Shown here piece by piece: positions 10,285-30,655 of a stretch of DNA of 64,000 bases; positions within the stretch are counted from its first letter, which is position 1; each line of letters starts with the position of its first letter. The DNA is from an uncultured Gammaproteobacteria bacterium (lineage in GTDB: Bacteria > Patescibacteriota > Patescibacteriia > UBA9934). The DNA lies in assembly GCA_964372415.1 (NCBI GenBank), contig CAYJQH010000003.1:24923-88922 (forward strand). Direction: 5' to 3'. The translations under genes were made by a program, and so were the position numbers. A model generated the notes under the pieces. The model had not been told where the DNA came from. It was given only the letters and a program-made list of their open reading frames with translations, and made no database searches.

Positions 10285-10320
10285 AAAAGCCCCCGACGAT
10301 TAGCCGGGGGCCTTATTATT
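10285..10320. terminator. Bidirectional intrinsic terminator between convergent genes
   Basis: aaaaaGCCCCCGacgattagCCGGGGGCcttattattt: GC stem with A-run on one side and T-run on the other. Confidence 0.65.
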
Positions 10321-12665
10321 TATGGAGTAGTTATTTCACCTACCGTCTCTTCAGGAATCTCTTCAACTGGCTCCGGGAGTTCGATTCCTCCTTGAGCTCC
10401 TGCCGTGAGACGCTCCAAGCGTTGTTTGACGGCTGTATTTTCCGGGTTTAGTTCAAGTACTTTTTGCACTTCTGAAATGGCTGCTTCTATTTCACCTTCT
10501 TCCTCGTAAATAACCGACAGATACCAATGGGCGTTTGAGAAGTTAGGTGCAATTTCAACCAGTCGCTCAAGTTCCGCCTTAGCTAAATCGTTCTTTCCTT
10601 GACGCAAGTACAAGAGCGCCAACTGGATACCAACCCCAAGATCGTTAGGCGCCGCATCACGAACCGCCGTCATGTCACGAACTGCTTCGGCGAGCTTACC
10701 TTGGCGCTCCTCAACGAATGAGTAGTAATAACGAGCAAGTACGTAATCACTCTTTAAACGAATTGCCTCCTGAAGCGCTGCTTCTGCTTTGGCCAGGGCC
10801 TCAGTTTGTAATCTACTGGCCTCTGCTGCAGCGGCCTCATCCTCAGCCTTTGTTTGTGGCGCTAGACTATCGGCCGTCACTATATAAGCACGAGCTAATT
10901 CAACTCTGAGACGTGGGTTAACTGGCCACAGGGCAATAGCTTGCTCATATGAAGCCACCGAAGCTTGGCTCGCATCTGAGGCAAGCGGTATCAATTCTCT
11001 AAATACTGTGCCACTCACTTCCCAGTTCCGAACATCGTTTGGCGAAATGGTCTTAGCGGCATTAGCTACGGCTACAGCATTACCAAGCAGTGACTGTAGA
11101 CGAGCACTGTCTGGCTCATCTTTTTGAGCTTCAACTGCGGCTTCCAAAAGAAGCGCAGCCGCGAGATTGCGGTAATAAACATCATCCTTAGGCGAAAGCG
11201 TAGCCGCCTTATTAAGTAACTCAATTGAAGCCAACGTTCCTCCGTCTTGAGTCTGCATGGCCTTGGCGTAAGCGACATTGGCCAAATATTTATTAGTCAC
11301 AACGTAGCCCACTACCGCGCTAGCTGTGATTGCGAGAACAAAGGCGGCATAGGTAGCTAGTTTAGCCCGCGGTGATTGACCAAGCGCTAAAATTTTAGCG
11401 GGCGGCAATAACTCAGCTAAAAGAATTCCTGTTAGGAGCCAAAACCAGACAACAAGAGTCATGTTAGTGGGATACACGACCGAAGCCACAACAAGCACTA
11501 ACCAAGCAATGAAAGGTGGCACGAGCGTTGCCGCAACGTTACTTGAGCGAGCCATAATCAAGCGGCGAATAGCCCCCACGAATATGACTCCAAGAAGCGC
11601 TGCAAAGGCAAGCACACCAACCAGGCCGTGAGTGGTTAATGAGGTCAGCGCCTGCCCTGCCCCACGATCAAAAATAACATCCCAAAGCGGCGATTTATTT
11701 ACGTTTTCACTAACGAACTTGCTGTACCCTAGGCCAAATGTTCCAGGACCGCTGCCCAAAAGAAAATTTCCATCCTTCCAGGTGCCCTTAGCAATCTCAA
11801 TCGTGGTCGCTTTGCCAGGTGCTGCTTCACGAGCAAAGCTCACACCCTGAAAGGGGCTTTGAAAAAGAAGAAAAGCTGCTGACAAGAAAAAAAGTGCAAC
11901 AAGGGGTACCAGTCTGCCTGGCGAAGCGTAATATTCGGCATAATAGAAAGCCAGAATACTGAGCGCAATACTAACTATTAGTCCGAGCCACCAGATCATC
12001 CGAGCATCAAGAACAACGAGGAGTAGACCGCCAACGATGAACAGACCAATCATTAAGGCAATTTGTAAGATTCGCCCTCGACTGCTTTCTGATTCTTCCC
12101 GCACGAGCCACCAGGCGCTAGCCCAAGAGAGGGCAGTCAGCAGAAAATAACCCAAACCAATCGGGGCGCCGACAGTGTTGGCAAAAATTCCGATGTTAAT
12201 TTTAAGAATTGGCAACAAAGCCAAGAGGGCCACCAGAAAGGCGCTGCCGAGCAAGGCCCAACCTAGACGTTTGCTCTCCTCCGCGCCGCGCAAGAGAAGC
12301 GGCATGACTAGGGCTAAAAGACCAAGTAAAGCGGTGGTCAAAAAACTGACATCTTCTTCGGTTTGACCCCCGAGCCAACTGATGTGGCTCTCTTGAGACA
12401 ACAATGACCCGAGCCCAACCACCCCTACCCAGACGAGTACCGCGATCATCGCGTAGCCGAATCGCGCCTCAATACGACGTTCAACTAAACTAGCCGCAAG
12501 CCAAGTAAGAACTACCACAGCCGTAGCCAAGAACAACCACAATTGTTTATTTATCTCAAGTGGTTCCCCGGTCCAAGGAAAGGCCACAAGTGGCAAGGTA
12601 ACTGCAAAGAAAATGAGCGCTCCCCGTGAGATATTGCGCAACGTTCCGTCTAAATTTTTTGACAT
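10320..12665 (-). CDS. Polytopic membrane protein with O-antigen-ligase/Wzy-like core and C-terminal TPR repeats
   Basis: About 12 predicted TM helices in the first 450 aa, a large periplasmic loop, then about 300 aa of TPR-like helical repeats (AELERLVEIAPNFSNAHWYLSVIYEEEGEIEAAI...). Confidence 0.55.
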   Translation of the reverse strand: MSKNLDGTLRNISRGALIFFAVTLPLVAFPWTGEPLEINKQLWLFLATAVVVLTWLAASLVERRIEARFGYAMIAVLVWVGVVGLGSLLSQESHISWLGGQTEEDVSFLTTALLGLLALVMPLLLRGAEESKRLGWALLGSAFLVALLALLPILKINIGIFANTVGAPIGLGYFLLTALSWASAWWLVREESESSRGRILQIALMIGLFIVGGLLLVVLDARMIWWLGLIVSIALSILAFYYAEYYASPGRLVPLVALFFLSAAFLLFQSPFQGVSFAREAAPGKATTIEIAKGTWKDGNFLLGSGPGTFGLGYSKFVSENVNKSPLWDVIFDRGAGQALTSLTTHGLVGVLAFAALLGVIFVGAIRRLIMARSSNVAATLVPPFIAWLVLVVASVVYPTNMTLVVWFWLLTGILLAELLPPAKILALGQSPRAKLATYAAFVLAITASAVVGYVVTNKYLANVAYAKAMQTQDGGTLASIELLNKAATLSPKDDVYYRNLAAALLLEAAVEAQKDEPDSARLQSLLGNAVAVANAAKTISPNDVRNWEVSGTVFRELIPLASDASQASVASYEQAIALWPVNPRLRVELARAYIVTADSLAPQTKAEDEAAAAEASRLQTEALAKAEAALQEAIRLKSDYVLARYYYSFVEERQGKLAEAVRDMTAVRDAAPNDLGVGIQLALLYLRQGKNDLAKAELERLVEIAPNFSNAHWYLSVIYEEEGEIEAAISEVQKVLELNPENTAVKQRLERLTAGAQGGIELPEPVEEIPEETVGEITTP

Positions 12666-12674
12666 AGAATGTCC

Positions 12675-15600
12675 TTATAGTGCCACAGCTGTATTTGTCT
12701 CGCTAGATTCACTCTGGATAGAATTCGTAAGTGCTTCTCCCGTCTCTAGAGGAGCTGTTAATTCGGGATCCGGAGTTGTCACGTTGGGCTCACTAGTTGC
12801 CGATTGAGATTCGGAAGTTACTAACTCTGGTTCATTTGTTGTTAATTCGGTTTCGTTCTGTACTGTCTCAGAATCTGTGGGTATTACCTCGGTTACAAGT
12901 ACGTCTTGTGCCTCTTGGACCTCTGTGGGCTCTTGAGCGAGCGGCTCGAAGTCTTTGTGGTAGGCAATAACAAGCCAGTCTACAAGAACCCCGCTCGCCC
13001 CACCTTCAGCATGAATAGTAAAGCCACCGTTTGAGCGATCGGTTACGTAAATCTGACCGGTAATACCCGAGGGGGTAACAAGGACACGATATGATGACCC
13101 GGGTGAGATGACGTCGTTAAACTTAGGATCAATTTGTTCGAACGATACGTTCACAAGTCCATTAACGAGCGTCGCGGTTCCCGACAGTTGCACCGTAGTC
13201 TCGCGGCTTGCCACAGCATACGTTTCAACCCTTTCATTTTGGAATGAATTGACTATCTGAATCAGACGCCCCTGCGTTTCAAGATCGCCATTTTCGGAAA
13301 TTTTCCAGAGCCCGTTACCGGCCACGATTGATGACACCCCAAGAATACTCCCGCCATTCATGGCAAGTGAGCCCGAGATATTCAGATTTGAAACATTACT
13401 CGATAGGTTAGAGACGATATTTTCGGCCATCGGTGTTTCAGCGATACTGCCATTTCCATCAAAGTAAGACGGACGAATGAAAGCCACAATTTTCCCTTCG
13501 TTTGAGGTCATTTCAGCCATGGCATAACCAAGAATTGGGCCGGGTTCGGTAGCTTTCATAGCATAACCGGGACGAGTTGAGGTGGTGAGTGGGTCACCAA
13601 CCGCAACCGAGCCATTTTCGTTTGTCACAAAGGTCGGCACGCGGCCAGCCAAAGCCACCGGATAATCACCAACTCGATTTTCACCGGCTAAAAATCCAGG
13701 ACGTGTCGAAATCACGCCAGCAATGCGATCGCTATATGGCTCATCGCCGGATTTTTTAACTTGTTCTTGGCCATCGCCAAAAACCACTAATTCGCCCGGT
13801 TTGAGAGTCTCCTTAGAAGGGAACATTTCAGCAAAGTCGTATGAACCCGTTCCCCAACCGGCCGCGTTCGTTCTCATGTAACCGACACCCGTTGGATCGT
13901 AGAAAATATAAGCATTAGTTTGGGTAATTCCATTTCCGGAGGGATAAAATTTGCCGCTTAAAACAAAGTCTCCAGTTTGAGTGATCGCCCCTACCTCAAC
14001 ACCGGCATTGTTGGTCACTGCCAAACGCGAATCGGCTGGTCCGATAACCTTATTTACCAGCCCCATGGTTACCGTTTGCGCCGAACTTCCATCCCAGGCC
14101 GAGCCACGGAACGTCAAAGCATTTGAATCTTGTAGTGGATTTGCGGCAGTCGCCTGAGCCACGGCCGTAAGCGCTACTTCATCCATAAGGAGTGCAACTT
14201 GACCATCGGTACTCAACACCTGTCCGGCATACCACTGGGGCGACACGTGAATCTTAATCAGACCTTGACCGGCAGATATAGACTCCAAGGCAAAACCGAT
14301 GATTGACGACGGACCATTGGCCCGTCCGGCATAACCTGGAACGAATGAGGAAGCCGTCACCGCATCACCAATATTGATTGGCCCATCAGCGGCTGAGGTG
14401 TAGGTAGAAATTTGACCCTGAAGACCAACAATCCGGTAGTTAGGATTATCTTCAAGCGATCCATCAGCGCCAGGAATATTGTTACCCACAAATCCCGGGT
14501 TCGGTGAAACTACACCGACAACGTCCCTATTCCCCGCCTCGCAACGCTTGACCGAATTAGCATTCAAACGATCACGACAAACCACATAAGAATCCTGAAG
14601 CGTTGGATCGTTGCTTCTGAAAAATTCAGCGTAGTCAGCGCCCGCGTTGTAGGTTGCACCGTCACCAAAAATGTCGCCGTCGTTTTCAAAACGGAACTCG
14701 GCATCCGGCGTGCCATCAGCATCCGAAACGATGAGTATGACTTCGTCACCATTTTGAGCCTCGTTGACGTTAATCACTAGAGCCTGCGAGGTAGCTGCCG
14801 TCGTGGCATCGGCTACGACGTCTTGAGTGATAACCAAACTCGATGACGTGGCAGCGGTGCTATCGTTACGAATCGACATCACATTGACATCGAAAGCCGT
14901 ATTATCCTGAAAGACATGAGCTATCGGTTGGTTGGCGGTCGCGCCAAGGTTGGTGTAAACCGTAAGGCCAAAGTCGATGTTCCCAGTGTTATCTATATGC
15001 ACTGCTCCACCAAGGGTTGAACTAACCGTTGACCCGGTATTACCGGAAGGATCAACAAAAATTGAGGAAGCGGTTCCGGAGTTGGCCAAATTAATAACGC
15101 TCACGCTCAAGGTACCGCTTGTGCCGCTATCTGCGAGCGATAACAGCGTGTTTGTGCCATCGGTGACGCTGAGCGTTCCCGTGCCGGCAATTTCGATGGT
15201 TGGCGAGGTATCGGCAAATACCAAATCAGAATCCCAACCAGTGCCGATTTCGATTGCATTCTCATCAGAACCGGTAGCCGTGATGTTGGCAATATTCAAC
15301 GCTCTAAACGTATCACCACCATCCCCTGAAGGCGTGAGCGAAGAGACGTTTATAGCGTTGGCAACTTGGCCAGAAACAGCTGTCCCAACTGCTTCGAGCA
15401 CAATGTCGAGACCGTCAAAACTATTGAAGCTAGCAAACCCGGAGTTGGTGATGGCTAAAAGATCATTGTTGGTTCCCGGTGACGCGGCGGCCACCACCTG
15501 GAGGTTTGAGTTAGAATCAGCATTTACTACAACGTCTCCTGAACCATTAGGAACTAAGAACAACGTTTCGTTTGTTCCAGTTGTAATATCGTTTGAAACA

Positions 15601-18600
15601 CCGCTAAGGGTAAGTGTGCCATCAGTGGTAATTGCATCTAGGCTCGCCGCGCCAGTCGCCCCGATAGACCAATCATTACCCCCGGTAATAGTAATTACCG
15701 TTCCGGCGTTTGAGTTACCAATCGTCAGTGTATCGGCCGTGGTCGAATTGGTGGCAACATTGATAGTGTTGCCCAAATCGGTGGTAACGCCACCAATATC
15801 GAGTGTCGTAGAATTTCCGGACGCATCAAGCAGGTTAAAGGTCGCTGAGGTGGAGGTAAAATCACCACCATTTAATGCCAAGTCACCGGTTGTCGTAACA
15901 TCGCCACTTGAGCCAACCACGTCAAAGTTTGTGAAATCAATGTTTGCTGTAGTACCAAGAAAAATGTTGTCACCGATATTGAGCGCATTAGTAAGCTCAG
16001 CATCAGAAACATCGATACCGTCAGTGATGCCACCAGCAGATGCCTGAACAATAATACCGTCCACCATGAGTTCGTTGGTGTCAGAATTCGTAAACACGGC
16101 CAGCGAATCAGGAACACCGGTACCTCCCCCATCATTCGCATTCTGAATAATCATGATGTTGTTACTTCCGGTATCAGCCGCCGCTGTATCGGTAAAAGCT
16201 ACAACAAACGCATTCAGGCTAACATCTGTCCCGTGCGTAACATCAATATTGAAGTTCTCCGAGGCAGCGCCATCGGTGACAAAGGTGAAATCAACGTCAT
16301 CATTTATGGCAAGCGTACCGAAAGAAGCGGCACCAGCAGCGCTGATCGACCAGTTGGCATCGGCAAGCGACACATTATCTAGGGCGTCTCCGATCGTGAT
16401 TGTATCGGCATCGGCATTTGTACCGAGTGTCAAGGTGTCGCAAGACGCTGAGTTACACAGCGAAACGCTCGTGGCGTTGGTGTCGCCAAGGGTTAAGGCT
16501 CCTCCAGCGTTTGTATCAAGACCAACACCCGCCGCCACGGTGATGGCACCGGCAGAGGAAACATCAAAATTATCAAAATTAAGTGTACCGGTGGTACCGA
16601 GAATTTCGTTTGCGCCTACAGACAAGGCAGTTCCAATCTCGTCGTCGGAAGCGTTGAAAGCGGTGGTAAGAGACGCCCCAGGATCGATGCCAAAAGTAAT
16701 ACCGTTCGCGACTATTTCGTTAGTATCTGCTGATTCAAGAATGATAAAGCCATCAGGAGTGCCGGTGGCTCCGCCATCATTAGCGTTATGCAGAGCTATA
16801 AAATAATTTGCTCCCGTGTCGGCGGCGGCGGTATCGGTCATGAGCATCGTGAGCGGCGTCATACTGACATCCGTGGCGTGCGTTACGGTAATCGCTAAAT
16901 TTTCTGACTGCGCACCATCGGTTGTAAAATTGAAGTTCACGTTGTCGTTCGCTGTGAGATCGCCACCAAAAGTGGCCAGGCCGGCACCAGTAATCGACCA
17001 ATCATCACCGCCCGTAATGGCCACAGTCGTGGCCGCATTGCTGTTACCGACAGTTAAAACATCTGCCGTAGTTGAGTTCGTGGCGATATTCACTGTGTTG
17101 CCAAGGTCAGTCGTCACGCCGCCGAAATCAAGAGTTGTCGAAGCGCCAGCTGCGTCCTGAAAGTCGAACGTGGCAACTGACGACGTAGCTATGGACCCAT
17201 CGCGGTAGCGTGTTGAAGCACCGCCGGCAGTGAATCCGACATCAGATAAAAACTCACCCGAAGCCGTAATCCGAGCCTTGGTAGTATCGGCTGCCGTGCC
17301 GGAATTGGTGGTTTCATCTGTAATAAGTGTAAAAACGTCATTGTTGGTGTTCCCGTTATCAAAATCGATGAATAAGGCTTGGGCGGTGGCCGTAGCTGAA
17401 CTTGAGAACATTTCAACGATGTTGCCGGTAGCCGCCCCAGAAGCCGTGAACTGGAACATGTTATCCGACCAAGCGCTGCTGCTTCTAATGTTGGCAATTG
17501 AACCGCTCGTCAAAGCATTAGTATCAATATCAAGCAGGTTGCCTGTTGTCAGAGCCGTTGCATCAAGCATGAAAACCTCGCCCGAGGTAGCAGTCGTATT
17601 AGTAAAATCTAGTGTCGCGTCATCTTTAAAAGTAAAGAAAGTAGCACCACCATCTTGAACCACAAAATCTCCAGTCGAAGTCAGGTTCACGACAGTATTA
17701 GCCGAAGAACCGTTAGTAACGGTAAACGTCTCGGCCCCGTCGAGAGCGATTGAGGTTGAGGCATCGAGGTCTAATGCGTCTTCAAACGAGTCGAAATCAA
17801 GACAATCCGTACACACCAAATCGCTCACCGTCGCTACACCGGCTGTAGTAATACTCCAGTCGTCACCACCTGTAATGGCGATAGTCGAGGCAGCATTGGA
17901 GTTACCGATGGTGATAACGTCAGCAGTCGTGACATTCGTCGCGATGTTTATAGTGTTGCCGAGGTCTGTAGTGACGCCGCCAATGTCGAGAGTTGTCGAG
18001 TTAGCCGCTGCGTCAAGAAAATTGAAGGTGGCAGAAGTCGAAGTAAAATCACCGCCGTTCAGTGCCAAATCGCCGGCTGAAGTAATGTTCCCACTCGCTC
18101 CTAGGACATCAAAATTGGTGTAATCAATATTACCTGTGGTACCAGCCAAATCATTCGCGCCAACCGACAGAGCGGTTACTATTTCAGCATCACTTGCGTC
18201 AATCGCCGCGGTCAAAGCGCCGGCTGCTACATCAAATAAAATACCTGTGGCCACTGCCTCATTGGTATCCAAGTGGCGCAACCCCAGGAGCGCGTCGGGT
18301 GTGCCGGTCGCTCCCCCATCGTCCTCGTTGTCGATGTTGAGCAGGATTACCGTTCCCGTATCGGCTGCGGCTGTGTTAGTCGAATTCAAACTTATGACAG
18401 AAATCGAAGAATCTACAGCGTGTGTGTGATCGATGGTTAAATTTTCAGCTCCCACGCCACTTGTTGCCAAAGTAATGTCTAAATCACCACTGAGCGATAA
18501 GTCGTCGTTGGTACCAAGTTGAACAACACCTGAAGAATCAATGGTTAACGTGCCGTCACTTGTAATGTCATCGCCGTTAATTGCCAAGTCACCGGTTGCT

Positions 18601-19304
18601 ACAATATCGCCCTCCTTGTCGACGCGGAAAATTGAGGTGCCACCATCGGCTACACCAAAAATCGTGTCGTTCGCTGCCGAATCAACAGCCGCTGGATTGA
18701 TGTAAAGGGAACCAGCCGAAACACCGGAACCTGACGGGTTACCGGTCACGACCAAGTTACCAGATGAATTGTAAGCCACGATGGCCGCTGCCGTCGCGCC
18801 GTCGTTATCGGCGTCAAGACCATCGAGGGTTTCGGAATTCAAGGCGTATGGCGCGGCGACGATTTGTTTTCGCGGACTTAAAACCTCGCCAGCAACAGTT
18901 ACCTGAAGAAACAAGGCTGCGTTATCGGCAAAAATTGCATCACTGATTGCGGCATAAGGTGTGGCAGCAGCGGTATCACCCAAATTTTCTGAAAACAAAC
19001 CGTCGGTCAAAGTCACGGTCCGTGCGGTCGCCGAAGCACACGTTGCAGATGAGTTCGACCACACACAAGAACCGCCCGACGAGGCCGTGTAGAACTCAAA
19101 GATCATGCTGACCGAAGCGCTTGAAAGCGGTATACCGTTGGCATTCAATAATCGACCTTGATAAGTAATTATGTTGGGCGCTGAGGCGGCCTGAACGATC
19201 GGCGTCACTCCGCTCACAGGACCCAAAGCAAAAATACAAAGCGTCGCCAGCAGAAATCTGGCGACTTTTGTCGCGCTGAATTTAGACTTGAGATGCGTTG
19301 TCAT
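12675..19304 (-). CDS. Giant (~2,200 aa) secreted repetitive surface protein
   Basis: Signal peptide ([28 protein letters not shown]). N-terminal module [16 protein letters not shown]...[13 protein letters not shown] resembles modules of phage-tail-fibre-like bacterial proteins. About 1,400 aa of Thr/Ser/Gly/Asp/Asn-rich beta-repeat units ([23 protein letters not shown]..Tx[14 protein letters not shown] recurs at least 3 times). Duplicated ~150-aa C-terminal domain (...[14 protein letters not shown] / ...[14 protein letters not shown]). Acidic Thr/Glu tail. The longest ORF begins at 19424. The Met before the signal peptide at 19304 is preferred. Confidence 0.7.
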
Positions 19305-21777
19305 GAAGTTCGTCGAGCGTCCGATGAAGACCCACGTTGACGGTGAGTGGTGCCGGCTCTGCTTGAGTGGTAGTGATTGGTTTGATGATCTTTTCCACAA
19401 AACCGGGTTTACTAACACTCGCATAATACTCGTTCGGACCGAGCAAGAACGAATAACGCCCGAGACGATCTGTTAAGGTCGACTCGATAAGCTTATTATA
19501 CCGCGGTTCAAAGAGCCTTATGACGGCGTTGCTCACAGGTTTATGCGTATTTTTATCGTAAACAATTCCCCAGCCTTTTGGCTTCTTCTTGTATACTAGT
19601 TTAAGCACCAGTAACAGCACTATAAATTGAATTCCGAGCATTGCTCCTGCAGCCAGGCTCGGGGCGATGATCAAGACGACTATTGAGATTCCCAGTCCCG
19701 ATAAGCCAAAAACAAGCTGGATTGTTTTTAAAAGTCGTTCGACAGCTAATTTTCGAGGTGCGTGAAATTGGGGCGCGTCAGACGGATCAAGTGGAATATT
19801 GGCTGTAACATTGGTTTTTTGCTCCGATACCTCAATATCTTCACCATGATAAACATCAAGATATTGACCGTCCGTTTTGATTTCGGCCAAATATTTACTG
19901 GGAAAGTTAAAACCTGGCTTTATTACCTCAAGGCGATACCTTCCTGGTTCAGCAAATACATAGAATCGACCTTCAGGGCTAGTAACGGTCGACTTCACAA
20001 GTCGATGTTCCGGCATACGGAACACGCGAATAGTGGCTAGACCTATCGGCACTTTAGTTACCGCGTTGTAAACTCGGCCAAAAGGGCGGCGTCGTTTTTT
20101 ACCGAAAAGTAAAGCTGGCGAAGTAAAAATGTAAAAAATAAAAGGCAGTAAATTTGAAACCGTCGCGAGGAGGGCAAGCGATACCAAGGCGATTGCGGCA
20201 GCCAATGGAAGGCCTATTCTGGCGATTGCCTGGGCAAGGGGGGCGTCAAGAATGTTACGTAGAAAAGGTGGCTCGAAGGGCGTTTCATCTGGTGTGATTA
20301 TAGGCACTAAAAGACGCTCAAGACGAACGTTAATAGTTAGAATGTTGTTTGTCACATTAACCTCAAGAGCAACATCCTCATAACCCGATTTGCTAACTAT
20401 GACTCGATAAGGACCGTTCGGCGTATACCAACCAATTAAACCATCGTCACCTGTTAAAACCGGATTTTCCTGATTAAAAACAAAGGCTTCCCAGGCTACA
20501 CCTGGCCCTTCTGAAAGATCATAAACGGTAACCACAGCTCCGGAAACAGGTACTACTTCGTCGTCAATAATCTCGTAAACAAGGCCAGAATCAGCGATAT
20601 CAATAAACACTGTGGCAGTCGCTTCTGTGTCATCAGCAAAATGCACAATGGTTCCAAGGGCGTCGTCAGAAACTGGGACGGGCACCAAACCCGAAAACAC
20701 GTTCGGCTCTTTAGTCGGTGAGAGTACGTATTGATCGTCACCTAAGACTACAACCACGCTTGTCGCCGCATCTTCAGAGTGAACAATAACTTCAACCTCA
20801 GCATAGGTTCCAGGCAGGACCTCTACCCCACCGTCGGCATCATCAAGGCGAAAGTCGTCAACTGCAATAATATCAATCTCGACCCGCGGTTCATCTATTA
20901 ATTCATTATCCGTTTCCTCATCTTTGGGCCCGTCTGGTGATGGCGTTGGGGTCGTTTCTGGAAGAGGAACTGATGGTGGCTGTGGCTCGGGAGTTGGTTC
21001 GGGTTCAGGAATCGGCTCGGGAGTTGGTTCGGGTGTAGGTTCCGGTTCAGGCTCAGGAATTGGTGTAGGCTCTGGCTCGGGAGTTGGTTCGGGTGTAGGT
21101 TCCGGTTCAGGCTCAGGCTCAGGTTCTGGTTCAGGTGACGGGGGTGTCGGATTCGACCCTCCTCCGCCTCCCCCACCGCCTCCGCCTGATGATGTTACAA
21201 CCACGCTCACCGAGTCACTACCAGCGCTCGTGTAAGGAAGGGGTATTGAGCCATCATTGCCTGAGGTTCCACCAAGCGTCAGGTAGTAAGTGCCGGGAGT
21301 TGAAGGATTCGTAATTCTATTAGCGCCAGAACCCGATGCCGCGGCGTTCGTACCAATTTCAACTGTTACCACACTACCGTTAGCCATCGCTCCCCCGTCC
21401 CCGGCACAAATGGTCAGAGTGAGGGTACCTGATGACATAGCTACCGAGGCCTGTTCAGCCCCAGCACACGTTGCTGCAGTTGTTAAATCAACCCCATCAT
21501 CAGTAATGTCGACATCATCCTCAACAATCGAGCTCGTCGTAAAACTACTTGGAAAAACTAGAGTTATTGTTTCACCCTCCGCCCAGGCGTCGACAAGCGT
21601 AAAGGTAAATTTGTGATTTGCAGTTTGTGACGTAACAAGAGAAGTTGGCTGATCAGAAAGGCTATCAACCGCAAGCGCCATCACCCACACAGGAACAATT
21701 AAAAACATGCTGACTAGCACTAAAAGTGTGGTCAGCGACTGACTAAAACAACGCTGCGCCCTCCGCCCGTCGTTCAC
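19282..21777 (-). CDS. Secreted/polytopic protein with Gly run, Pro-Glu-Thr linker and two CarboxypepD_reg-like beta-sandwich domains flanked by TM segments
   Basis: Signal peptide. G11 run followed by [18 protein letters not shown]... linker. Two TM blocks and two paralogous domains ([20 protein letters not shown]... / [21 protein letters not shown]...). Confidence 0.6.
20940..21180. repeat. Tandem ~63-nt DNA repeats encoding the Pro-Glu-Pro-Thr linker
   Basis: ggctcgggagttggttcgggtgtaggttccggttcaggctcagg... recurs in tandem at about 21016-21141 with flanking degenerate copies. Confidence 0.6.
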
Positions 21778-21788
21778 AATTGCTTACA

Positions 21789-22682
21789 CTATACGCGACG
21801 GAATTGTCGCCAAACAAATAATAAAATGACAACGATTAATCCGCCTACGAGCGCCAAAATACGCCAAGGAAATAGTACCACGTTTGTGGTCTTAAAAATT
21901 ACACTTTGGCCATCGGCTGAAAGCAATTCAAGAGTAGCCGTGTACGGACCAATGTAAATGCCTGAATTAGGTTGCCAATTAATCGTAAATACCCGACTCG
22001 TTCCGCCGGGAATTCGTCGCGGAATTTCAATCAATGGCAAGGCTGCTATATCTTTTCCCCACATGTTTGTAAGCACCACCTGTCCTACAGGCTGTGTGGT
22101 AGCTTGGCCTTGATTTGTTAGAACGGTGATGAATCTTATGGGAAAAGTGCTTGTAAACTTCGGTGTCGCCTCAAAAGACGAAATAGTTAGGTCGGCTTCC
22201 AAAACATCCCCGATGGTCATAAAAAACAAGGCTGCGACTCCTTGCCTAACCGATACGCCGCCGGTTACCTCTGCAGATTTATTTTCTTGTTGGGCAATTA
22301 AGGCCACCGTTACTACTCTGCCTGATGCTTCGCCTTCCGGGCTAATACTTAGATCAATAGCTCTAGTGCTATGTGGTGTAAGTTCAACCCGTTGAGTAGT
22401 CAGTTCAAACCAGTCTTTCATATCTTCCGGAAGTTCAGAAAATACGAGGTCGTCAGCGCTTGATCCGAATTCTACGAGTTGAAGCGATAAATTATACGTC
22501 TCTGTTTGATTGTTTTCGTTTATTAAATGCAAGGTTCTGACCAATTCCGTGCCAGGATCAATTACAACGTCAGTTGCATCTGGATCAAAACGAACTGCGC
22601 TCGCCGTAGTAGTCAAAAAGAAACTTGAGGTTATCCCAAGGATGCACAACAATACTCGAAATTTATTAGTAATTACCGACAA
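21789..22682 (-). CDS. Secreted protein with C-terminal TM anchor (two beta-rich domains), hypothetical
   Basis: N-terminal signal peptide. C-terminal hydrophobic helix plus RQFRRV stop-transfer. The architecture resembles DUF916-type surface-cluster proteins but that could not be confirmed. Confidence 0.5.
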   Translation of the reverse strand: MSVITNKFRVLLCILGITSSFFLTTTASAVRFDPDATDVVIDPGTELVRTLHLINENNQTETYNLSLQLVEFGSSADDLVFSELPEDMKDWFELTTQRVELTPHSTRAIDLSISPEGEASGRVVTVALIAQQENKSAEVTGGVSVRQGVAALFFMTIGDVLEADLTISSFEATPKFTSTFPIRFITVLTNQGQATTQPVGQVVLTNMWGKDIAALPLIEIPRRIPGGTSRVFTINWQPNSGIYIGPYTATLELLSADGQSVIFKTTNVVLFPWRILALVGGLIVVILLFVWRQFRRV

Positions 22683-23571
22683 AAATGAAGGTCAACGAAT
22701 GGGAGTATGAATTACTCTGAATGCCGGAATCAACAGCTGATTTGAGAGTTAAAAAATCACGCGACTTAAAGGATACCGCCGATCGACTGGCGATTTGCTG
22801 AAGCGAGGTGGTAAAAGCAGAGTCTTCTGTATCAAAAGTTGATGAGGCAAGCGTAGTATCTGATGATTTTGCGCCGTATTCTGTACTACCTAACGATACC
22901 GAGCCGTCTGTAACATCACTAATCACGGGTGTGCCAGCGGGTGCCCTGAGTTCGCCATCCTCAAGCACGAACATGCTGTAACCGCTAGGTACGTCAGATG
23001 TCACTTCCCAGCCGATGATTCCAGTACTAGCAGTAGTCGACGATAATGATGAGAGCGGCAGACTAGTACCCGAAAGCTCGTAGACGTAGTCGCTCACGCC
23101 ATCAATCGTTGGACTTGATGAGCCAGTTGTTAAAAAATCGACGATTAATGTTGAGCCGCCAATTGAGGTAATTTTGCCTGTGGCCGAAATTTGACTTAGT
23201 CCCTCGTCCTGGACAATTGCGATGTAATCTCCCGTCGAGTAACCGGAGGTCGAAGTTACGGTTACGGTCGTGCCGGTCAGGGCTGTGGCTCCAACCTGCG
23301 AGTTAAGATCCTGAGAAAACAAGCTGAAGAAGACAGTTGGATCATAAATACCTGAACGAAAACCAGAATCCAAACGATAAGATGCAGATGACGATATACC
23401 AGCAAGACCTGACTCAAGCGAATCTCTAAGTCTGTATGAGCTAGATGAGCTCGTATCTGAGCCGCCTGAATTAAGGGAATCCCACTGAATTTGGTAAGTC
23501 GTTGAAGTCATGCTAGCAAAACCGAAATTTGGAGCAAAAAAAAGCAAACCAACAACAAGCACCGTAGACAT
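22666..23571 (-). CDS. Ser/Thr-rich secreted protein, hypothetical
   Basis: Signal peptide MSTVLVVGLLFFAPNFGFASM. Low-complexity S/T-rich body. First gene of the minus-strand surface operon. Start chosen at Met 23571 rather than ORF start 23637. Confidence 0.45.
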   Translation of the reverse strand: MSTVLVVGLLFFAPNFGFASMTSTTYQIQWDSLNSGGSDTSSSSSYRLRDSLESGLAGISSSASYRLDSGFRSGIYDPTVFFSLFSQDLNSQVGATALTGTTVTVTSTSGYSTGDYIAIVQDEGLSQISATGKITSIGGSTLIVDFLTTGSSSPTIDGVSDYVYELSGTSLPLSSLSSTTASTGIIGWEVTSDVPSGYSMFVLEDGELRAPAGTPVISDVTDGSVSLGSTEYGAKSSDTTLASSTFDTEDSAFTTSLQQIASRSAVSFKSRDFLTLKSAVDSGIQSNSYSHSLTFIFVGNY

Positions 23572-23645
23572 CTTTTTGCCAATATTTACAGGCATAATCT
23601 GCTGAACACAATAAGTCGTCAACCGTCTGTTTAGCAAGCTTTTTT

Positions 23646-23654
23646 GTGGATAAC
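23646..23654. promoter_or_regulatory. Perfect DnaA box (TGTGGATAA) in the AT-rich region upstream of the surface operon
   Basis: Exact 9-mer match to the TTATCCACA complement. Near-matches follow (tgtccacac, taatccaca). Confidence 0.35.
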
Positions 23655-23927
23655 TTTTTAAAAATTTTTTAATTTAATTTGTCCACACTAGCGTAGACAA
23701 ATTCTTTTGCGTTCGTGAGTCGTAAAACATAAAATATTTTTCTTAAAATAGTTTGTTGCCCACATTTAATCCACAGTTTCACATAAAACGTCGCAGCTAA
23801 CGTTAGCATAATTTAAGCAATTAGCAGAAAACTATCAACAGAGTAACGTGGTCACAAACATAAACGTTATTTTTTTGACGATTTTGACGATAACAAATGA
23901 AAAAATCTCATTAAATTGATTAATACG

Positions 23928-23992
23928 AGGCGTGGGGTTGATTTTTTCGAGACGTACTTAATGGTACGCTAAGAAAAAATCGGGCCCCACAA
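23928..23992. repeat. Structured hairpin element, copy 1 of a 3-4 member family abutting tRNA genes
   Basis: Outer stem gtgggg/ccccac, a long stem gattttttc/gaaaaaatc, and inner hairpin cgagaCGTACttaatGGTACG. Related to 24221-24289 and 30478-30550 with compensatory changes. Confidence 0.4.
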
Positions 23993-24022
23993 CACAGTAG
24001 TAAGCAATTTAATCAGATTTTC

Positions 24023-24098
24023 TGGTGGACCTGAGCGGATTCGAACCGCTGACCTCCGCAATGCGAATGCGGCGCTCTACCAACTGAGCCACAGGCCC
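24023..24098 (-). tRNA. tRNA-Ala (anticodon CGC)
   Basis: 76-nt cloverleaf on the minus strand with G3:U70 Ala identity pair and anticodon loop TTCGCAT. T-loop GGTTCGAATCC. Encoded CCA. Confidence 0.85.
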
Positions 24099-24220
24099 GG
24101 GCTGGCTATTAGCTGCTAGCGATTAGCGAGCCATTAGCTTTTAGCAATTAACTAACCACACTGTTTCACATGAAGCGCGGTCCCATATAACCGTTGAAAT
24201 TGAATTAAATAACTTTTATA

Positions 24221-24289
24221 CAAGGCGCGGGAAGTCGAGGTTGAGGCGTAGTTAATACTACGGTGAGGCCGAGACAGGGACCCGCAACG
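24221..24289. repeat. Structured hairpin element, copy 2
   Basis: caaggcgcgggaagtcgaggttgaggCGTAGTtaatACTACGGTGAGGCCGAGacagggacccgc. Shares the 17-nt core ACTACGGTGAGGCCGAG with the copy at 30478-30550. Outer stem gcggg/cccgc. Confidence 0.45.
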
Positions 24290-24316
24290 AAGTATAAAAT
24301 TATTTAAATCGGTTTC

Positions 24317-24392
24317 TGGTGCCCCCACCCGGAGTTGAACCAGGATCAAGGGCTTAGGACGCCCCCGTTCTATCCAATTGAACTATGGGGAC
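24317..24392 (-). tRNA. tRNA-Arg (anticodon CCT)
   Basis: 76-nt cloverleaf on the minus strand. Anticodon loop GTCCTAA. T-arm CCTGG-TTCAACT-CCGGG. Encoded CCA. Confidence 0.75.
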
Positions 24393-24400
24393 AAAACACA

Positions 24401-24435
24401 CCCAAGTTTGGCCACCTTCGTCGTCGTTCGCTCCG
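24401..24435 (-). promoter_or_regulatory. Conserved ~35-nt leader block immediately 5' of tRNA-Arg(CCT)
   Basis: cccaagtttggccaccttcgtcgtcgttcgctccg matches ccaagtttggccatcttcgtcgtcgttcgctccg (30815-30848) 5' of tRNA-Arg(TCT). Weaker homology (cttactcg...ctag) extends about 60 nt further upstream in both copies. Confidence 0.4.
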
Positions 24436-24592
24436 CACGACATCAACGCAAATTTTTTACGCTTACTCGTGATCACTTACGCCTAGATTATGAGTCGTAA
24501 AACAATAATGTGATCTGTGTTATACTTTACAGTACGACCAGGCAGATTGTAATAAAAATTTACGAGCCGGTCAAAGAATAAAACAGTTGAAT

Positions 24593-25708
24593 ATGAGCAC
24601 GGAGCTTCTCGCGGTCATGGTGTCACTCGTTACTGCGATTCTCGTAGTACTAGTACTCATCAAAGTACGTCACACCTCTGCCCAAGTGTCGTCAAACGAT
24701 ACCATTCGTCATCTCTCAGAGCTCCGACAAGAACTTCAACGATTGCAACACGAGCATAGTCAGGAGATGCAGTCACAACTTACGCGAGTCAATGATCAGG
24801 TGTACCGGGGTTTAAGCGATTCCCAAAAGGCGATGCAGACGCAATTCGCTCACACCTCAAAAATTATTGAGGACATCACTCAAAAACTCACTACACTCGA
24901 TGCCACCAACAAACAAGTGCTGGATTTTTCCTCACAGCTTAAAAGTCTTCAAGACGTTCTCAAAAACCCAAAACAACGGGGAGTGCTAGGTGAGTATTGG
25001 CTCGAAACCCTGTTACAAAATATTTTGCCTCCAGCCTCGTACGCCATGCAGTATCGCCTTGGCAAACATGACACAACAAACAAAGATCTTATCGCTGATG
25101 CTGTAATCTTTGTTCGCGAGCTGATTGTGCCGATTGATGCCAAATTTAGTTTGGAAAATTACAATCGAGCAATCGGTGAACAGAATCCCGAAAGACGCGA
25201 AGAGCTTGAAAGGCAACTAAAAGCCGACGTAAAGATACGAATCGATGAAACATCAAAGTATATCCAACCACAACAGGGAACACTGGATTTTGCTTTCATG
25301 TTTATCCCCGCAGAAGGTGTTTATTACAATCTTTTGAACGCCGAGGTGGGCAGCGGAGTCAACAGTCAAAACTTGATTGAATACGCCTTCTCAAAAAAAG
25401 TAATGATCGTTTCTCCAACCTCACTTTTTGCATATCTACAAACCGTAATCTTGGGGTTAAATAATCTTCAAATCGAAAAAAACGCACAGGAAATTCAAAA
25501 AAATGTTGCAGAGCTTGGCAAGCATTTGCGTTCTTTTTTTGAATATCACAGTAAAGTGGGGAAGAATCTTGCAACGACAGTCAATCAATATAACGTCGCC
25601 TCAGGTGAATTTAAAAAAATCAGTAAGGACGTGGTAAGGATTACCGATGGCAATAAAGATGAAATTATCGAGATTGAGATTGTCGAAAAACCGACATTAA
25701 TTGAATAG
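24593..25708 (+). CDS. rmuC: DNA recombination protein RmuC
   Basis: N-terminal TM helix, long coiled coil, and C-terminal RmuC nuclease-like domain (DAVIFVRELIVPIDAKFSLENY...). ATG at 24593. The longest ORF begins TTG 24587. Confidence 0.8.
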   Translation: MSTELLAVMVSLVTAILVVLVLIKVRHTSAQVSSNDTIRHLSELRQELQRLQHEHSQEMQSQLTRVNDQVYRGLSDSQKAMQTQFAHTSKIIEDITQKLTTLDATNKQVLDFSSQLKSLQDVLKNPKQRGVLGEYWLETLLQNILPPASYAMQYRLGKHDTTNKDLIADAVIFVRELIVPIDAKFSLENYNRAIGEQNPERREELERQLKADVKIRIDETSKYIQPQQGTLDFAFMFIPAEGVYYNLLNAEVGSGVNSQNLIEYAFSKKVMIVSPTSLFAYLQTVILGLNNLQIEKNAQEIQKNVAELGKHLRSFFEYHSKVGKNLATTVNQYNVASGEFKKISKDVVRITDGNKDEIIEIEIVEKPTLIE

Positions 25709-25720
25709 GCGCAGAGATAA

Positions 25721-25757
25721 AAAAACGCCCCTTAGCATTTGTTCGGGGCGTTTTTTT
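25721..25757. terminator. Bidirectional intrinsic terminator between rmuC and rpsT
   Basis: aaaaaCGCCCCttagcatttgttcGGGGCGttttttt. Confidence 0.7.
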
Positions 25758-26022
25758 ACTTCGTTGCTTTGTTTAGACGAATGGCCGTGCGGCTTTTTAT
25801 ACGAGAGGCGGCATTTTTCTTAATAACTCCTTTAGTTACCGCTTTATCAAGAGTCTTGCCGAGGTCGCGGATAAGCGTTTTAGCTTCATCAAGCTTTTTA
25901 GCGTCGAGCAGTTTTCGGAAATTACGGCGCATGTAGGCAATGCTTTCATGTACCTTGATATTGCGCGCGGCTCTAACGTTACTTTGACGGAGAGCCTTTT
26001 TGGCATTTTGGAGAATTGGCAT
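25756..26022 (-). CDS. rpsT: 30S ribosomal protein S20
   Basis: 88-aa highly basic helical protein MPILQNAKKALRQSNVRAARN.. typical of S20. Confidence 0.9.
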   Translation of the reverse strand: MPILQNAKKALRQSNVRAARNIKVHESIAYMRRNFRKLLDAKKLDEAKTLIRDLGKTLDKAVTKGVIKKNAASRIKSRTAIRLNKATK

Positions 26023-30578: not shown

Positions 30579-30653
30579 GGCGGCTATAGCTCAATGGTAG
30601 AGCACCGGGTTGTGGTCCCGGCTACACGGGTTCGATCCCCGTTAGTCGCCCCA
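30579..30653 (+). tRNA. tRNA-His (anticodon GTG) with encoded G-1
   Basis: Extra 5' G pairing with C73 discriminator. Anticodon loop TTGTGGT. T-loop GGTTCGATCC. Encoded CCA. Confidence 0.85.
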
Positions 30654-30655
30654 GA

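What the first reader, a model, noticed from the sequence alone, without database searches (positions are those of the whole stretch)
12675..19304. A 2,200-aa giant protein with a phage-tail-fibre-like N-terminal module, about 1.4 kb of beta-repeat units and a duplicated C-terminal domain
After the signal peptide comes a module [16 protein letters not shown]...FEFY...GGSCVWS...[13 protein letters not shown], as found at the N-termini of phage-tail-fibre-like bacterial surface proteins. Next are long T/S/G/D/N-rich repeats with a recurring ~45-aa unit ([27 protein letters not shown]...ITGGDDWSI, at least 3 copies). Two paralogous ~150-aa C-terminal domains follow ([10 protein letters not shown]...[14 protein letters not shown] and [10 protein letters not shown]...[14 protein letters not shown]). 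The protein ends in a final beta-sandwich and an acidic T/E tail. No canonical anchor (LPxTG, PEP-CTERM, T9SS CTD) is visible. The internal DNA repeats make this gene prone to recombinational length variation.
Basis: partly seen in the sequence, partly recalled or inferred. Interest (0 to 1): 0.65.

Follow-up and report, generated by a model that had tools for sequence, protein, structure and literature searches.

The report
Giant tail-fibre-like surface fibre (CPR)
This is a real 2,209-residue secreted protein of an ultrasmall "candidate phyla radiation" bacterium. It is built like a phage tail fibre, and is most likely a cell-surface fibre for gripping other cells, from a large family that nobody has yet characterised.

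Summary
The ORF is real: window 12675-19304, minus strand, 2,209 aa. It lies in a Patescibacteria chromosome, in a lineage like Candidatus Uhrbacteria.

**Architecture**
- A Sec-type signal peptide.
- A 118-aa beta-sandwich, remotely homologous to the N-terminal domain of Bdellovibrio "mosaic adhesive trimer" (MAT) fibres.
- About 1,400 aa of T/S/G/D/N-rich shaft built from shuffled modules: 3 copies of ~170 aa and 3 copies of ~85 aa.

Both G2 units carry the D-x-A-E motif at the position where phi29 gp12 cleaves itself.

**Context**
- At least 486 loci in reference genomes encode relatives, and the listed ones are Patescibacteria.
- No relative was found in phage collections.
- The gene sits in a conserved five-gene operon between rmuC and ychF.

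**Best reading:** a homotrimeric surface fibre. Its C-terminal cassette probably nucleates folding and is then cut off. Its probable role is host or prey attachment.

largely right, with three corrections. The chaperone is G2-type, not S74. The N-module is bacterial rather than phage-like. The DNA repeats are too diverged (17 nt longest exact repeat) to make this allele recombination-prone.

It is a new variant of a known kind.

The parts
12675..19304 (-). Complete CDS of the giant fibre protein (2,209 aa plus stop codon)
   Evidence: ORF list and translation. An identical protein, P0001, and more than 180 homologues exist.
19188..19304 (-). Sec-type signal peptide, aa 1-39. It has a K/R-rich n-region and the h-region [13 protein letters not shown]. 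Cleavage after VQA is inferred.
   Evidence: It is the only strongly hydrophobic 19-aa stretch of the protein. Homologues place the N-module at aa ~35-45. The cleavage site itself is inferred, not predicted by a tool.
18831..19184 (-). N-terminal beta-sandwich module (aa 41-158), MAT_N-like, with the invariant pair Cys80/Cys89. Presumed cell-proximal docking domain.
18567..18830 (-). Conserved proximal shaft (aa 159-246)
   Evidence: It is covered by 75-91 of 120 homologues. Beta strands are predicted with pLDDT 82-88.
18045..18566 (-). Shaft module 'ab', copy 1 (aa 247-420)
   Evidence: Self-BLAST and MAFFT alignment of the three copies.
17790..18044 (-). Shaft module 'c', copy 1 (aa 421-505).
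16932..17186 (-). Shaft module 'c', copy 2 (aa 707-791)
16503..17018 (-). Shaft module 'ab', copy 2 (aa 763-934)
15849..16364 (-). Shaft module 'ab', copy 3 (aa 981-1152)
15603..15857 (-). Shaft module 'c', copy 3 (aa 1150-1234)
14637..15602 (-). Variable distal shaft (aa 1235-1556). It becomes the tip of the mature fibre if cleavage occurs at Asp1557.
   Evidence: Few of the 120 homologues align over its first ~170 aa (6-18 up to aa ~1400), rising to 37-84 towards the cassette. There are no family hits.
14100..14636 (-). Peptidase_G2 / phi29-gp12-D4-like autochaperone unit 1 (aa 1557-1735). It starts with D1557-Y-A-E1560. The predicted autocleavage is Ala1556|Asp1557 (Asp codon 14634-14636).
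13839..14099 (-). Conserved beta-rich linker domain (aa 1736-1822)
   Evidence: Conserved in about 115 of 120 homologues. AF2 predicts strands at pLDDT 55-74.
13368..13838 (-). Peptidase_G2-like unit 2 (aa 1823-1979). It starts with D1823-F-A-E1826. A second possible cleavage is Tyr1822|Asp1823 (Asp codon 13836-13838).
   Evidence: PF11962 scores 17.9 bits, below the gathering score. It is paralogous to unit 1. AF2 pLDDT is 77-89. The motif [10 protein letters not shown] occurs in about 100 of 119 homologues.
12945..13307 (-). C-terminal beta-sandwich (aa 2000-2120)
12678..12944 (-). Acidic Thr/Glu-rich low-complexity tail (aa 2121-2209) with no sorting signal
   Evidence: Composition and motif scan. 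Poorly conserved among homologues.
19282..21777 (-). Upstream operon partner g831, a polytopic membrane protein. It has an extracytoplasmic N-terminal half, a Gly7 plus (PEPT)n linker and CarboxypepD_reg domains. Its stop overlaps the fibre ATG by 23 nt. Candidate membrane dock (inferred).
   Evidence: Pfam result and translation. It lies directly upstream of the fibre gene in 51 of the 55 loci where the N-module is in view.
21789..22682 (-). Operon partner g297: signal peptide, beta-rich ectodomain and a C-terminal TM helix. No family assigned.
   Evidence: Translation. No family or PDB hits. Syntenic in 27 loci.
22666..23637 (-). Operon partner g323: a secreted S/T-rich protein with a weak PamT-like match (CPR pilus tip pilin). 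The likely start is the ATG at 23595 or 23571.
   Evidence: NF058579 scores 24-33 bits against a cutoff of 240. Syntenic in 32 loci.
10320..12665 (-). Downstream operon partner TPR781: a multi-spanning membrane domain (about 12 hydrophobic segments by eye) plus C-terminal TPR repeats
   Evidence: Pfam and NCBIfam TPR hits and translation. It lies downstream of the fibre gene in 73 of 84 loci.

Best explanation
The gene encodes a secreted, most likely homotrimeric, phage-tail-fibre-like surface fibre of a Patescibacteria (Uhrbacteria-like) cell. It is the CPR counterpart of the Bdellovibrio MAT chimeric fibres.

**Proposed mechanism**
1. The Sec machinery exports the chain using the N-terminal signal peptide.
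2. The MAT_N-like beta-sandwich (aa 41-158) stays cell-proximal and docks the fibre to an envelope component. A candidate is the translationally coupled membrane protein g831.
3. The ~1,400-aa T/S/G/D/N-rich middle forms the shaft. It is assembled from shuffled ~85-aa and ~170-aa modules and varies between lineages.
4. The conserved C-terminal cassette emerges last, trimerises and nucleates folding of the shaft from the C-terminal end. It holds two phi29-gp12-D4-type (Peptidase_G2, beta-tulip) autochaperone units, a beta linker and a beta-sandwich.
5. The cassette is then removed by autoproteolysis N-terminal to Asp1557 and/or Asp1823. This exposes the variable distal shaft as the working tip.
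6. The fibre probably mediates attachment to a host or prey cell, or to a surface, in the epibiotic lifestyle typical of this group.

**Shown:** the domain identities, motif conservation, synteny, taxonomic range and absence from phages.

**Inferred:** trimerisation, cleavage, orientation, docking partner and adhesive function.
For: **N-module**
- It is homologous to Bdello_MAT_N: E 1.9e-9 for this protein, and 28 of 28 family members match.
- The MAT paper states that all 21 MATs carry a ~130-aa beta-rich domain right after the signal peptide, and that 13 of them end in a self-cleaving S74 chaperone (PMC10769870).
- More distant proteins with this N-module end in Peptidase_G2 or Peptidase_S74.

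**C-terminal units**
- Pfam PF11962 scores above its gathering score on unit 1.
- A PDB profile hit to the released phi29 gp12 fragment 3gqh_A aligns its first residue with D1557.
- The phi29 gp12 intramolecular chaperone is absent from the mature trimeric appendage (PMC9863714). Its D4 domain is a pair of beta-tulips that drives trimerisation (bioRxiv 10.1101/216911).
- D-x-A-E is kept in 83 of 85 homologues at site 1. At site 2 the D is kept in 106 and the E in 114 of 119. At least one intact motif is present in 119 of 120 homologues.

**Extracytoplasmic location**
- There is a signal peptide, and the eight non-signal cysteines fall in four close pairs.

**Family architecture**
- The two ends are conserved and the middle is variable. 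Module copy number varies among homologues.

**Cellular, not viral**
- The flanking genes are housekeeping genes.
- The same five-gene operon lies between rmuC and ychF in dozens of genomes.
- At least 486 relatives exist in reference genomes, and the best 80 are all CPR by name or synteny.
- There are no relatives in IMG/VR, and only one weak C-terminal hit and no N-module hit in 50,697 phage genomes.
Against: - No multimer prediction or experiment was possible, so trimerisation and cleavage are untested.
- The central shaft has no recognisable family or solved relative. Its fold, beta-helical or otherwise, is assumed from composition.
- The putative disposable cassette is ~650 aa and is the best-conserved part of the family, which is odd for a chaperone alone.
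- Unlike phi29 gp12, the G2 units are not at the extreme C-terminus.
- As I recall from Xiang et al. 2009 (not held in the library), release of phi29 D4 needs ATP, which is unavailable outside the cell.
- The N-module match is below NCBIfam's curated cutoff (37.5 against 60 bits).
- That the N-terminal domain is cell-proximal is itself only inferred in the MAT paper.
- No host is known for this lineage, so the adhesive role rests on analogy.
Confidence: 0.6

Rival explanations
1. Same fibre, but the C-terminal cassette is not cleaved. The two beta-tulip units act as permanent trimerisation clamps, as in capsid decoration proteins. The terminal beta-sandwich is a conserved distal knob that binds a conserved ligand.
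For: - The cassette is the most conserved region.
- The last domain weakly resembles tailspike and fibre C-terminal domains.
- 13 of 119 homologues have lost the Asp at site 2.
Against: - The D-x-A-E motif is nearly invariant exactly where phi29 gp12 cleaves.
- At least one intact motif is retained in 119 of 120 homologues.
- Receptor-binding tips are normally the most variable part of a fibre, not the most conserved.
Confidence: 0.2
2. An envelope-structural protein of the CPR cell itself, such as an S-layer-associated spike or cell-wall-spanning strut, rather than a host adhesin.
For: - The locus is conserved in position across the lineage, next to housekeeping genes.
- Its operon partners are membrane proteins.
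- The composition is T/S/G-rich, like many surface-layer proteins.
Against: - The architecture is MAT-like: an N-module plus an intramolecular chaperone.
- The extreme length and module variability of the middle (1,219-3,487 aa) fits diversifying interaction with partners better than a lattice does.
Confidence: 0.15
3. A tailspike-like enzyme. Part of the shaft would be a catalytic beta-helix that degrades host cell-wall or capsule polymers, as phi29 gp12 degrades teichoic acid.
For: - It has the same chaperone type as the phi29 gp12 tailspike.
- There are weak C-terminal similarities to K1 capsule lyase and depolymerases.
Against: - No pectate-lyase, beta-helix, hydrolase or lyase family was detected anywhere in the protein, with either whole-protein or segment searches.
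- The similarities to lyases concern only their non-catalytic C-terminal domains.
Confidence: 0.1
4. A prophage, tailocin or other mobile-element tail-fibre gene, or an assembly artefact produced by collapsed repeats.
For: - The domains are tail-fibre-like.
- A tyrosine recombinase and tRNAs lie about 11 kb away.
- The protein contains repeats.
Against: - No phage structural genes lie nearby.
- Synteny between rmuC and ychF is conserved across many genomes.
- The protein has a signal peptide.
- There are no relatives in IMG/VR or phage genomes.
- GC content matches the flanks.
- The repeats are only 62-76% identical at DNA level, the longest exact repeat is 17 nt and there is no tandem array, so there is nothing to collapse.
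- Homologues align full-length at both ends.
Confidence: 0.03

Closest known systems
Bdellovibrio bacteriovorus MAT (mosaic adhesive trimer) chimeric fibre proteins (NCBIfam NF053851; Caulton et al. 2024, PMC10769870)
   Same: - A signal peptide followed directly by a homologous ~120-130-aa beta-rich N-domain with no PDB relative.
- A long fibre region.
- A C-terminal self-cleaving chaperone in most members.
- Mosaic evolution.
- The producer lives on other bacteria.
   Different: - The N-module scores below the Bdellovibrio subfamily cutoff (37.5 against 60 bits).
- The chaperone is Peptidase_G2-type and duplicated, not S74.
- An extra beta-sandwich and an acidic tail follow the chaperone units.
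- Here the middle varies while both ends are conserved, whereas in MATs the C-terminal tip varies.
- This genome window holds one copy, and related genomes 1-2, in a fixed operon. Bdellovibrio has 21 dispersed paralogues.
- The cell has no outer membrane.
Bacteriophage phi29 gp12 pre-neck appendage (tailspike), domain D4 autochaperone; Pfam PF11962 Peptidase_G2 / MEROPS G2; PDB 3GQH
   Same: - The D-[FY]-A-E-[FY]-F motif at the exact start of the released fragment.
- The presumed role in trimerising a beta-rich fibre.
   Different: - phi29 has one D4 at the extreme C-terminus of an 854-aa cytoplasmically folded virion protein with a catalytic beta-helix.
- Here there are two units, 650 and 385 aa from the C-terminus of a Sec-exported cellular protein.
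- No enzymatic domain was detected.
- Sequence similarity is detectable only with profiles.
Peptidase_S74 intramolecular-chaperone tail fibres and endosialidases (for example phage T5 pb1, K1F endosialidase)
   Same: The same logic: a C-terminal, self-cleaving trimerisation chaperone on a fibre.
   Different: The fold and catalytic motif differ (Ser-Lys, SDxxxK). No S74 match exists in this protein, although a more distant protein with the same N-module does carry S74.
'Tail fibre-like protein' reported next to the pam pilus operon of Saccharimonadia/Microgenomatia (Troman et al., bioRxiv 10.64898/2026.03.03.709456)
   Same: A CPR protein described as tail-fibre-like and consistently co-located with secreted pilus-type genes. 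Here the operon's first gene has a weak PamT-like match.
   Different: That paper gives no sequence detail, so identity with this family could not be tested. No PamA, B, C, D, E or R match exists in this operon. The lineage is different (Uhrbacteria-like).

Membership tests
MAT (mosaic adhesive trimer) fibre family, NF053851 Bdello_MAT_N | Conserved beta-rich ~130-aa domain immediately after the signal peptide, homologous to the MAT N-domain | tested here: met
   hmmscan gives E 1.9e-9 on aa 41-260, and 28 of 28 family members match with a best E of 1.7e-10. The AF2 beta-sandwich has pLDDT above 90. There is no close PDB fold, as reported for MATs.
MAT (mosaic adhesive trimer) fibre family, NF053851 Bdello_MAT_N | Score at or above NCBIfam's curated cutoff (60 bits) for the Bdellovibrio subfamily | tested here: not met
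   25.8 bits on the whole protein and 37.5 bits on the isolated N-region. It is a homologous domain, not a member of that subfamily.
MAT (mosaic adhesive trimer) fibre family, NF053851 Bdello_MAT_N | Homotrimeric beta-helical fibre that locates to the cell surface and binds prey | not testable with these tools
   No multimer prediction or experiment was available. The central region has no family or PDB match.
Peptidase_G2 / phi29 gp12 D4 autochaperone (PF11962, MEROPS G2) | Pfam match at or above the gathering score | tested here: met
   Unit 1 scores 28.5 bits against 25 when scanned as a segment. Unit 2 scores 17.9 bits, below the threshold. No hit appears when the whole 2,209-aa protein is scanned. 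Several homologues carry a precomputed PF11962 hit.
Peptidase_G2 / phi29 gp12 D4 autochaperone (PF11962, MEROPS G2) | D4 fold (beta-tulip) | tested here: met
   [not shown]
Peptidase_G2 / phi29 gp12 D4 autochaperone (PF11962, MEROPS G2) | Conserved Asp/Glu motif at the scissile position (the released fragment begins D-F-A-E-Y-F) | tested here: met
   The profile alignment puts residue 1 of 3gqh_A on D1557. D-x-A-E is present in 83 of 85 homologues at site 1. At site 2 the D is present in 106 and the E in 114 of 119. The catalytic roles of the D and E are from memory, not tested here.
Peptidase_G2 / phi29 gp12 D4 autochaperone (PF11962, MEROPS G2) | Actual autoproteolytic release after trimerisation | not testable with these tools
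   This needs expression with SDS-PAGE or mass spectrometry, or proteomics.
Peptidase_G2 / phi29 gp12 D4 autochaperone (PF11962, MEROPS G2) | Single unit forming the extreme C-terminus of the precursor | tested here: not met
   There are two units, starting about 650 and 385 aa before the C-terminus. A beta-sandwich and an acidic tail follow them.
Peptidase_S74 intramolecular chaperone fibres | PF13884 match with the SDxxxK motif | tested here: not met
   No S74 hit in whole-protein or segment scans.
Prophage or tailocin tail fibre | Embedded among phage structural or lysis genes, with relatives in phage genomes | tested here: not met
   The neighbours are YchF, sigma-70, RmuC, HolA, Gmk and PolA. 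Chromosomal synteny is conserved. There are no relatives in IMG/VR. INPHARED gives no N-module match and only one weak C-terminal hit.
Covalently or otherwise canonically anchored surface proteins (LPxTG/sortase, PEP-CTERM, T9SS CTD, C-terminal TM) | C-terminal sorting signal | tested here: not met
   The regex and hydropathy scan found none. The only hydrophobic segment is the signal peptide.
Diversity-generating-retroelement target protein | A template/variable repeat pair and a reverse transcriptase nearby | tested here: not met
   No repeat pair links the gene to anywhere else in the 64-kb window beyond a 50-nt, 60%-identical chance-level match. No RT appeared among the ten flanking ORFs scanned with Pfam; the rest of the window was not scanned.
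CPR Pam pilus system (PamA/B/C/D/E/T/R) | Operon encoding Pam pilins and membrane-anchored chaperones | tested here: inconclusive
   There is only a weak PamT-like match for g323, at 24-33 bits against a cutoff of 240. No other Pam model matches the operon proteins at E<=1. g297 has the gross layout of PamC/D (signal peptide, beta-rich region, C-terminal TM helix) but no detectable similarity.

The most novel reading that the evidence does not exclude
The five-gene operon could encode a previously undescribed CPR surface organelle. The operon is a PamT-like secreted protein, a membrane-tethered chaperone-like protein, the polytopic membrane protein g831, the giant fibre, and a multi-spanning membrane protein with TPR repeats. 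In this reading, a phage-fibre-like trimer made with a tandem, doubly self-cleaving G2 chaperone cassette is docked through its MAT_N-like domain to a dedicated membrane platform. That platform would be related to the Pam donor-strand pilus pathway, and the organelle would determine host range for Uhrbacteria-type epibionts.
Probability: 0.15. Interest if true: 0.8.

Novelty: new variant of a known kind. Interest (0 to 1): 0.55.

Why it matters
How CPR/Patescibacteria cells find and hold their hosts is largely unknown outside a few cultured Saccharibacteria, and hosts of Uhrbacteria-type lineages are unknown.

This family is a concrete candidate host-recognition fibre:
- It is present in hundreds of reference genomes.
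- It sits at a fixed locus.
- It has conserved assembly ends and a hypervariable shaft.

It links CPR bacteria to the fibre strategy just described for predatory Bdellovibrio. It extends the phi29-type (G2) autochaperone to Sec-exported cellular proteins. It also offers testable handles: the cleavage-site mutants, recombinant shafts as host-binding probes, and the conserved operon partners.

Tried and rejected
- **Whole-protein family and PDB scans.** Pfam, PHROGs and PDB sequence scans of the whole protein gave nothing. Only segment-wise scans and profiles revealed the G2 units.
- **PDB searches with single segments.** phmmer with single C-terminal segments found only noise. The central repeat region found nothing in PDB and only a weak giant-phage tail-fibre PHROG match, E 1.4e-3.
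- **Self-comparison.** The first self-BLAST attempts returned only the identity hit. Fragment-wise BLAST worked.
- **Phage origin.** Rejected.
- **DGR targeting.** Not found in the window.
- **Canonical anchors.** Rejected.
- **Operon partners.** The TPR membrane protein, g831, g297 and g323 gave no Pfam hits beyond TPR, CarboxypepD_reg and related weak beta-domain matches, and no informative PDB hits. The idea that TPR781 is a Wzy_C/PMT-type O-glycosyltransferase acting on the Thr/Ser-rich fibre has no support.
- **Literature.** Xiang et al. 2009, the phi29 gp12 structure paper, is not held in the library. Statements about the catalytic roles of Asp and Glu and about ATP-dependent release are therefore from memory. 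Literature searches found no description of this family.
- **Own record.** The exact-sequence contig look-up for the window's own protein found no record.

Full report
**1. Observation**

The window holds one long ORF on the minus strand, 12675-19424. The start that fits all the evidence is the ATG at 19304, which gives 2,209 aa.
- This start leaves a 39-residue Sec-type leader: K/R-rich, then [13 protein letters not shown], then VQA. It puts the conserved N-module at aa 41-158, the same position as in more than 140 relatives.
- The extra 40 codons upstream overlap the conserved 3' end of the preceding gene.
- The identical 2,209-aa protein is in the public collection (P0001).
- Composition is T 12%, A 12%, G 10.5%, S 9%, D 8%, N 8%.

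**2. Internal repeats**

Fragment-wise self-BLAST and alignment resolve two module types.
- Module 'ab' is ~170 aa, at aa 247-420, 763-934 and 981-1152.
- Module 'c' is ~85 aa, at aa 421-505, 707-791 and 1150-1234.
- Copies are 40-74% identical, with E values down to 9e-58.
- The repeat-bearing region therefore covers about 1,000 aa (~3 kb), not 1.4 kb.
- At DNA level the copies are only 62-76% identical. TRF finds no tandem array. The longest exact repeat in the gene is 17 nt.
- This allele is therefore not a good substrate for homologous recombination or for assembly collapse.
- Across homologues the modules occur in 0-8 copies ('c') and 0-7 copies ('ab'), and the listed proteins range from 1,219 to 3,487 aa. 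Modular length change is real on an evolutionary scale.

**3. Organism and locus**
- The named homologues in the search are labelled Patescibacteria or Candidatus Uhrbacteria.
- Flanking genes are housekeeping genes: YchF, a sigma-70 factor, an RNA methyltransferase, RmuC, the DNA polymerase III delta subunit, guanylate kinase and PolA. tRNAs also lie nearby.
- GC content of the gene equals that of its flanks.
- In four other genomes the same order is found: rmuC, a ~300-aa gene, a ~300-aa gene, an 800-1,130-aa membrane protein, the giant fibre, a ~780-aa TPR membrane protein, then ychF.
- A scan of one genome per species found at least 486 loci encoding relatives of the C-terminal cassette. 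The best 80 are Uhrbacteria, Patescibacteria, Parcubacteria or Falkowbacteria MAGs, including several ~1-Mb MAGs titled 'Gammaproteobacteria' that share the synteny.
- tblastn of the neighbours on 84 loci shows the TPR gene downstream in 73. The membrane protein g831 lies directly upstream in 51 of the 55 loci where the fibre's N-module is in view.
- The family is absent from IMG/VR. In 50,697 phage genomes there is no N-module hit and only one weak C-terminal hit.
- It is therefore a chromosomal, lineage-wide gene, not a prophage gene.

**4. N-terminal module**
- NCBIfam's Bdello_MAT_N model (mosaic adhesive trimer fibres of Bdellovibrio) matches aa 38-116. The score is 25.8 bits on the whole protein and 37.5 bits (E 1.9e-9) on the isolated region. 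It matches all 28 aligned family members, always below the curated cutoff of 60 bits.
- AlphaFold2 with a 28-sequence alignment gives a confident beta-sandwich for aa 41-150, with pLDDT above 90.
- A profile of the 118-aa module against 1.84 billion cluster representatives finds 18,892 proteins at E<=1e-3 and 1,760 at E<=1e-10. In nearly all of the listed hits the domain lies at residues ~15-175, directly after the leader.
- Among the more distant listed hits, two end in Peptidase_G2 and one in Peptidase_S74. The module is thus a general N-terminal cassette of chaperone-assembled bacterial fibres.
- The invariant pair Cys80/Cys89, and three more close Cys pairs elsewhere in the protein, fit an extracytoplasmic protein.

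**5. C-terminal cassette**
- Coverage across 120 homologues shows two conserved ends, aa ~40-250 and ~1450-2130, and a variable middle.
- Segment scans give Pfam PF11962 (Peptidase_G2, IMC autoproteolytic cleavage domain). Unit 1 scores 28.5 bits against a gathering score of 25, and unit 2 scores 17.9 bits.
- A profile of the cassette hits PDB 3GQH, the released C-terminal fragment of the phi29 appendage protein gp12. Residue 1 of that fragment (DFAEYFE...) aligns with Asp1557 (GA|DYAEFF).
- The AF2 model has a mean pLDDT of 65.6, but 85-93 and 77-89 for the two units.
- The gp12 chaperone domain is absent from the mature trimeric appendage.
- In the family, D-x-A-E is kept in 83 of 85 sequences at site 1. 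At site 2 the D is kept in 106 and the E in 114 of 119.
- 81 of 120 homologues keep both motifs, 38 keep exactly one (either one), and one keeps none. This suggests that at least one cleavage matters.
- Downstream lie a beta-rich linker, the second unit, a beta-sandwich (aa 2000-2120) and a poorly conserved acidic Thr/Glu tail without any sorting signal. The sandwich has weak similarity to K1-lyase_C and to a phage tail-protein PHROG.

**6. Mechanism proposed**

This part is inferred, by analogy with MATs and phi29 gp12.
- The protein is exported by Sec.
- The N-module docks it to the envelope.
- The C-terminal cassette trimerises and templates the shaft.
- Autocleavage before Asp1557 and/or Asp1823 removes 387-653 residues.
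- A mature fibre of ~1,520 residues remains, whose variable distal region contacts the target.

Points that do not fit neatly:
- The cassette is large and is the best-conserved part of the family.
- The G2 units are not terminal.
- ATP, reported from memory to be needed for D4 release in phi29, is not available outside the cell.

The main rival is that the cassette stays attached as a conserved knob. Other rivals are:
- an envelope-structural role;
- an undetected enzymatic tailspike function, for which no catalytic family was found;
- a phage origin or an assembly artefact, both disfavoured.

**7. Comparison with known systems, and novelty**
- It works like a MAT fibre and shares the N-domain, but it fails the subfamily cutoff and uses a different, duplicated chaperone.
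- Its C-terminal units are members of the Peptidase_G2/D4 fold family by sequence threshold (unit 1), fold and motif. They sit in a new context: Sec-exported, tandem and non-terminal.
- A recent preprint on CPR Pam pili mentions a 'tail fibre-like protein' co-located with pam operons. Here the first operon gene has only a weak PamT-like match, so the link is open.
- No paper found describes this family, and the few source names given for its members are 'hypothetical protein' or 'repeat protein'.

Verdict: a real feature and a new variant of a known kind. It is of moderate interest as a candidate host-recognition fibre of an uncultured CPR lineage.

Noticed in passing
window 10320-23637 (minus strand): The giant gene is the fourth gene of a five-gene cluster: g323, g297, g831, the fibre and TPR781. 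The cluster is conserved in order between rmuC and ychF in dozens of Patescibacteria genomes. None of the four partners has an informative family assignment.
   Followed up: partly
window 22666-23637 (-): g323 is a secreted Ser/Thr-rich protein with repeated S-x-Y-[QR]-[IL] motifs near its N-terminus. It has a weak match to NCBIfam CPR_pilus_PamT: 33 bits with the signal peptide and 24 bits without it, against a cutoff of 240.
   Followed up: partly
window 19282-21777 (-): g831 has a Gly7 run followed by ~90 aa of (PEPT)n repeats. It also has several TM segments and three CarboxypepD_reg-like stretches. Its stop codon overlaps the fibre's start by 23 nt, which suggests translational coupling.
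   Followed up: partly
window 10320-12665 (-): A 781-aa protein with about 12 hydrophobic segments (by eye) followed by TPR repeats. The layout recalls GT-C/O-antigen-ligase-like enzymes with TPR domains, but no such family was detected even at E<=10.
   Followed up: partly
window 22001-26000: GC content drops to 0.43-0.44, against 0.48-0.50 elsewhere. The region covers g323, g297, tRNA-Ala and tRNA-Arg (24023-24392) and rmuC.
   Followed up: no
window 30580-31925: A XerC/D-type tyrosine recombinase (30987-31925, minus strand) lies next to tRNA-His and tRNA-Arg (30580-30799). This could be a chromosome-dimer resolvase or the edge of an integrated element.
   Followed up: no
window 14977-16047 (+) and 16153-16806 (+): Long antisense ORFs of 356 and 217 aa lie inside the giant gene. 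They are most likely by-products of its biased codon composition.
   Followed up: no
L011-L013, L015, L030, L077, L081 and others: Many reference MAGs carrying this locus are titled 'uncultured Gammaproteobacteria'. Two of them are complete chromosomes of ~0.9-1.0 Mb, and several share the Uhrbacteria synteny. The record titles appear to be wrong.
   Followed up: no
L069 + L076 (JACPHX010000016.1); L053 + L073 (MGDT01); L070 + L078 (JBDRLV01): Some genomes carry two fibre loci. In JACPHX010000016.1 the two lie about 20 kb apart, and the second copy has a much more divergent N-module (26-34% identity). This hints at paralogue diversification, as in Bdellovibrio MATs.
   Followed up: no
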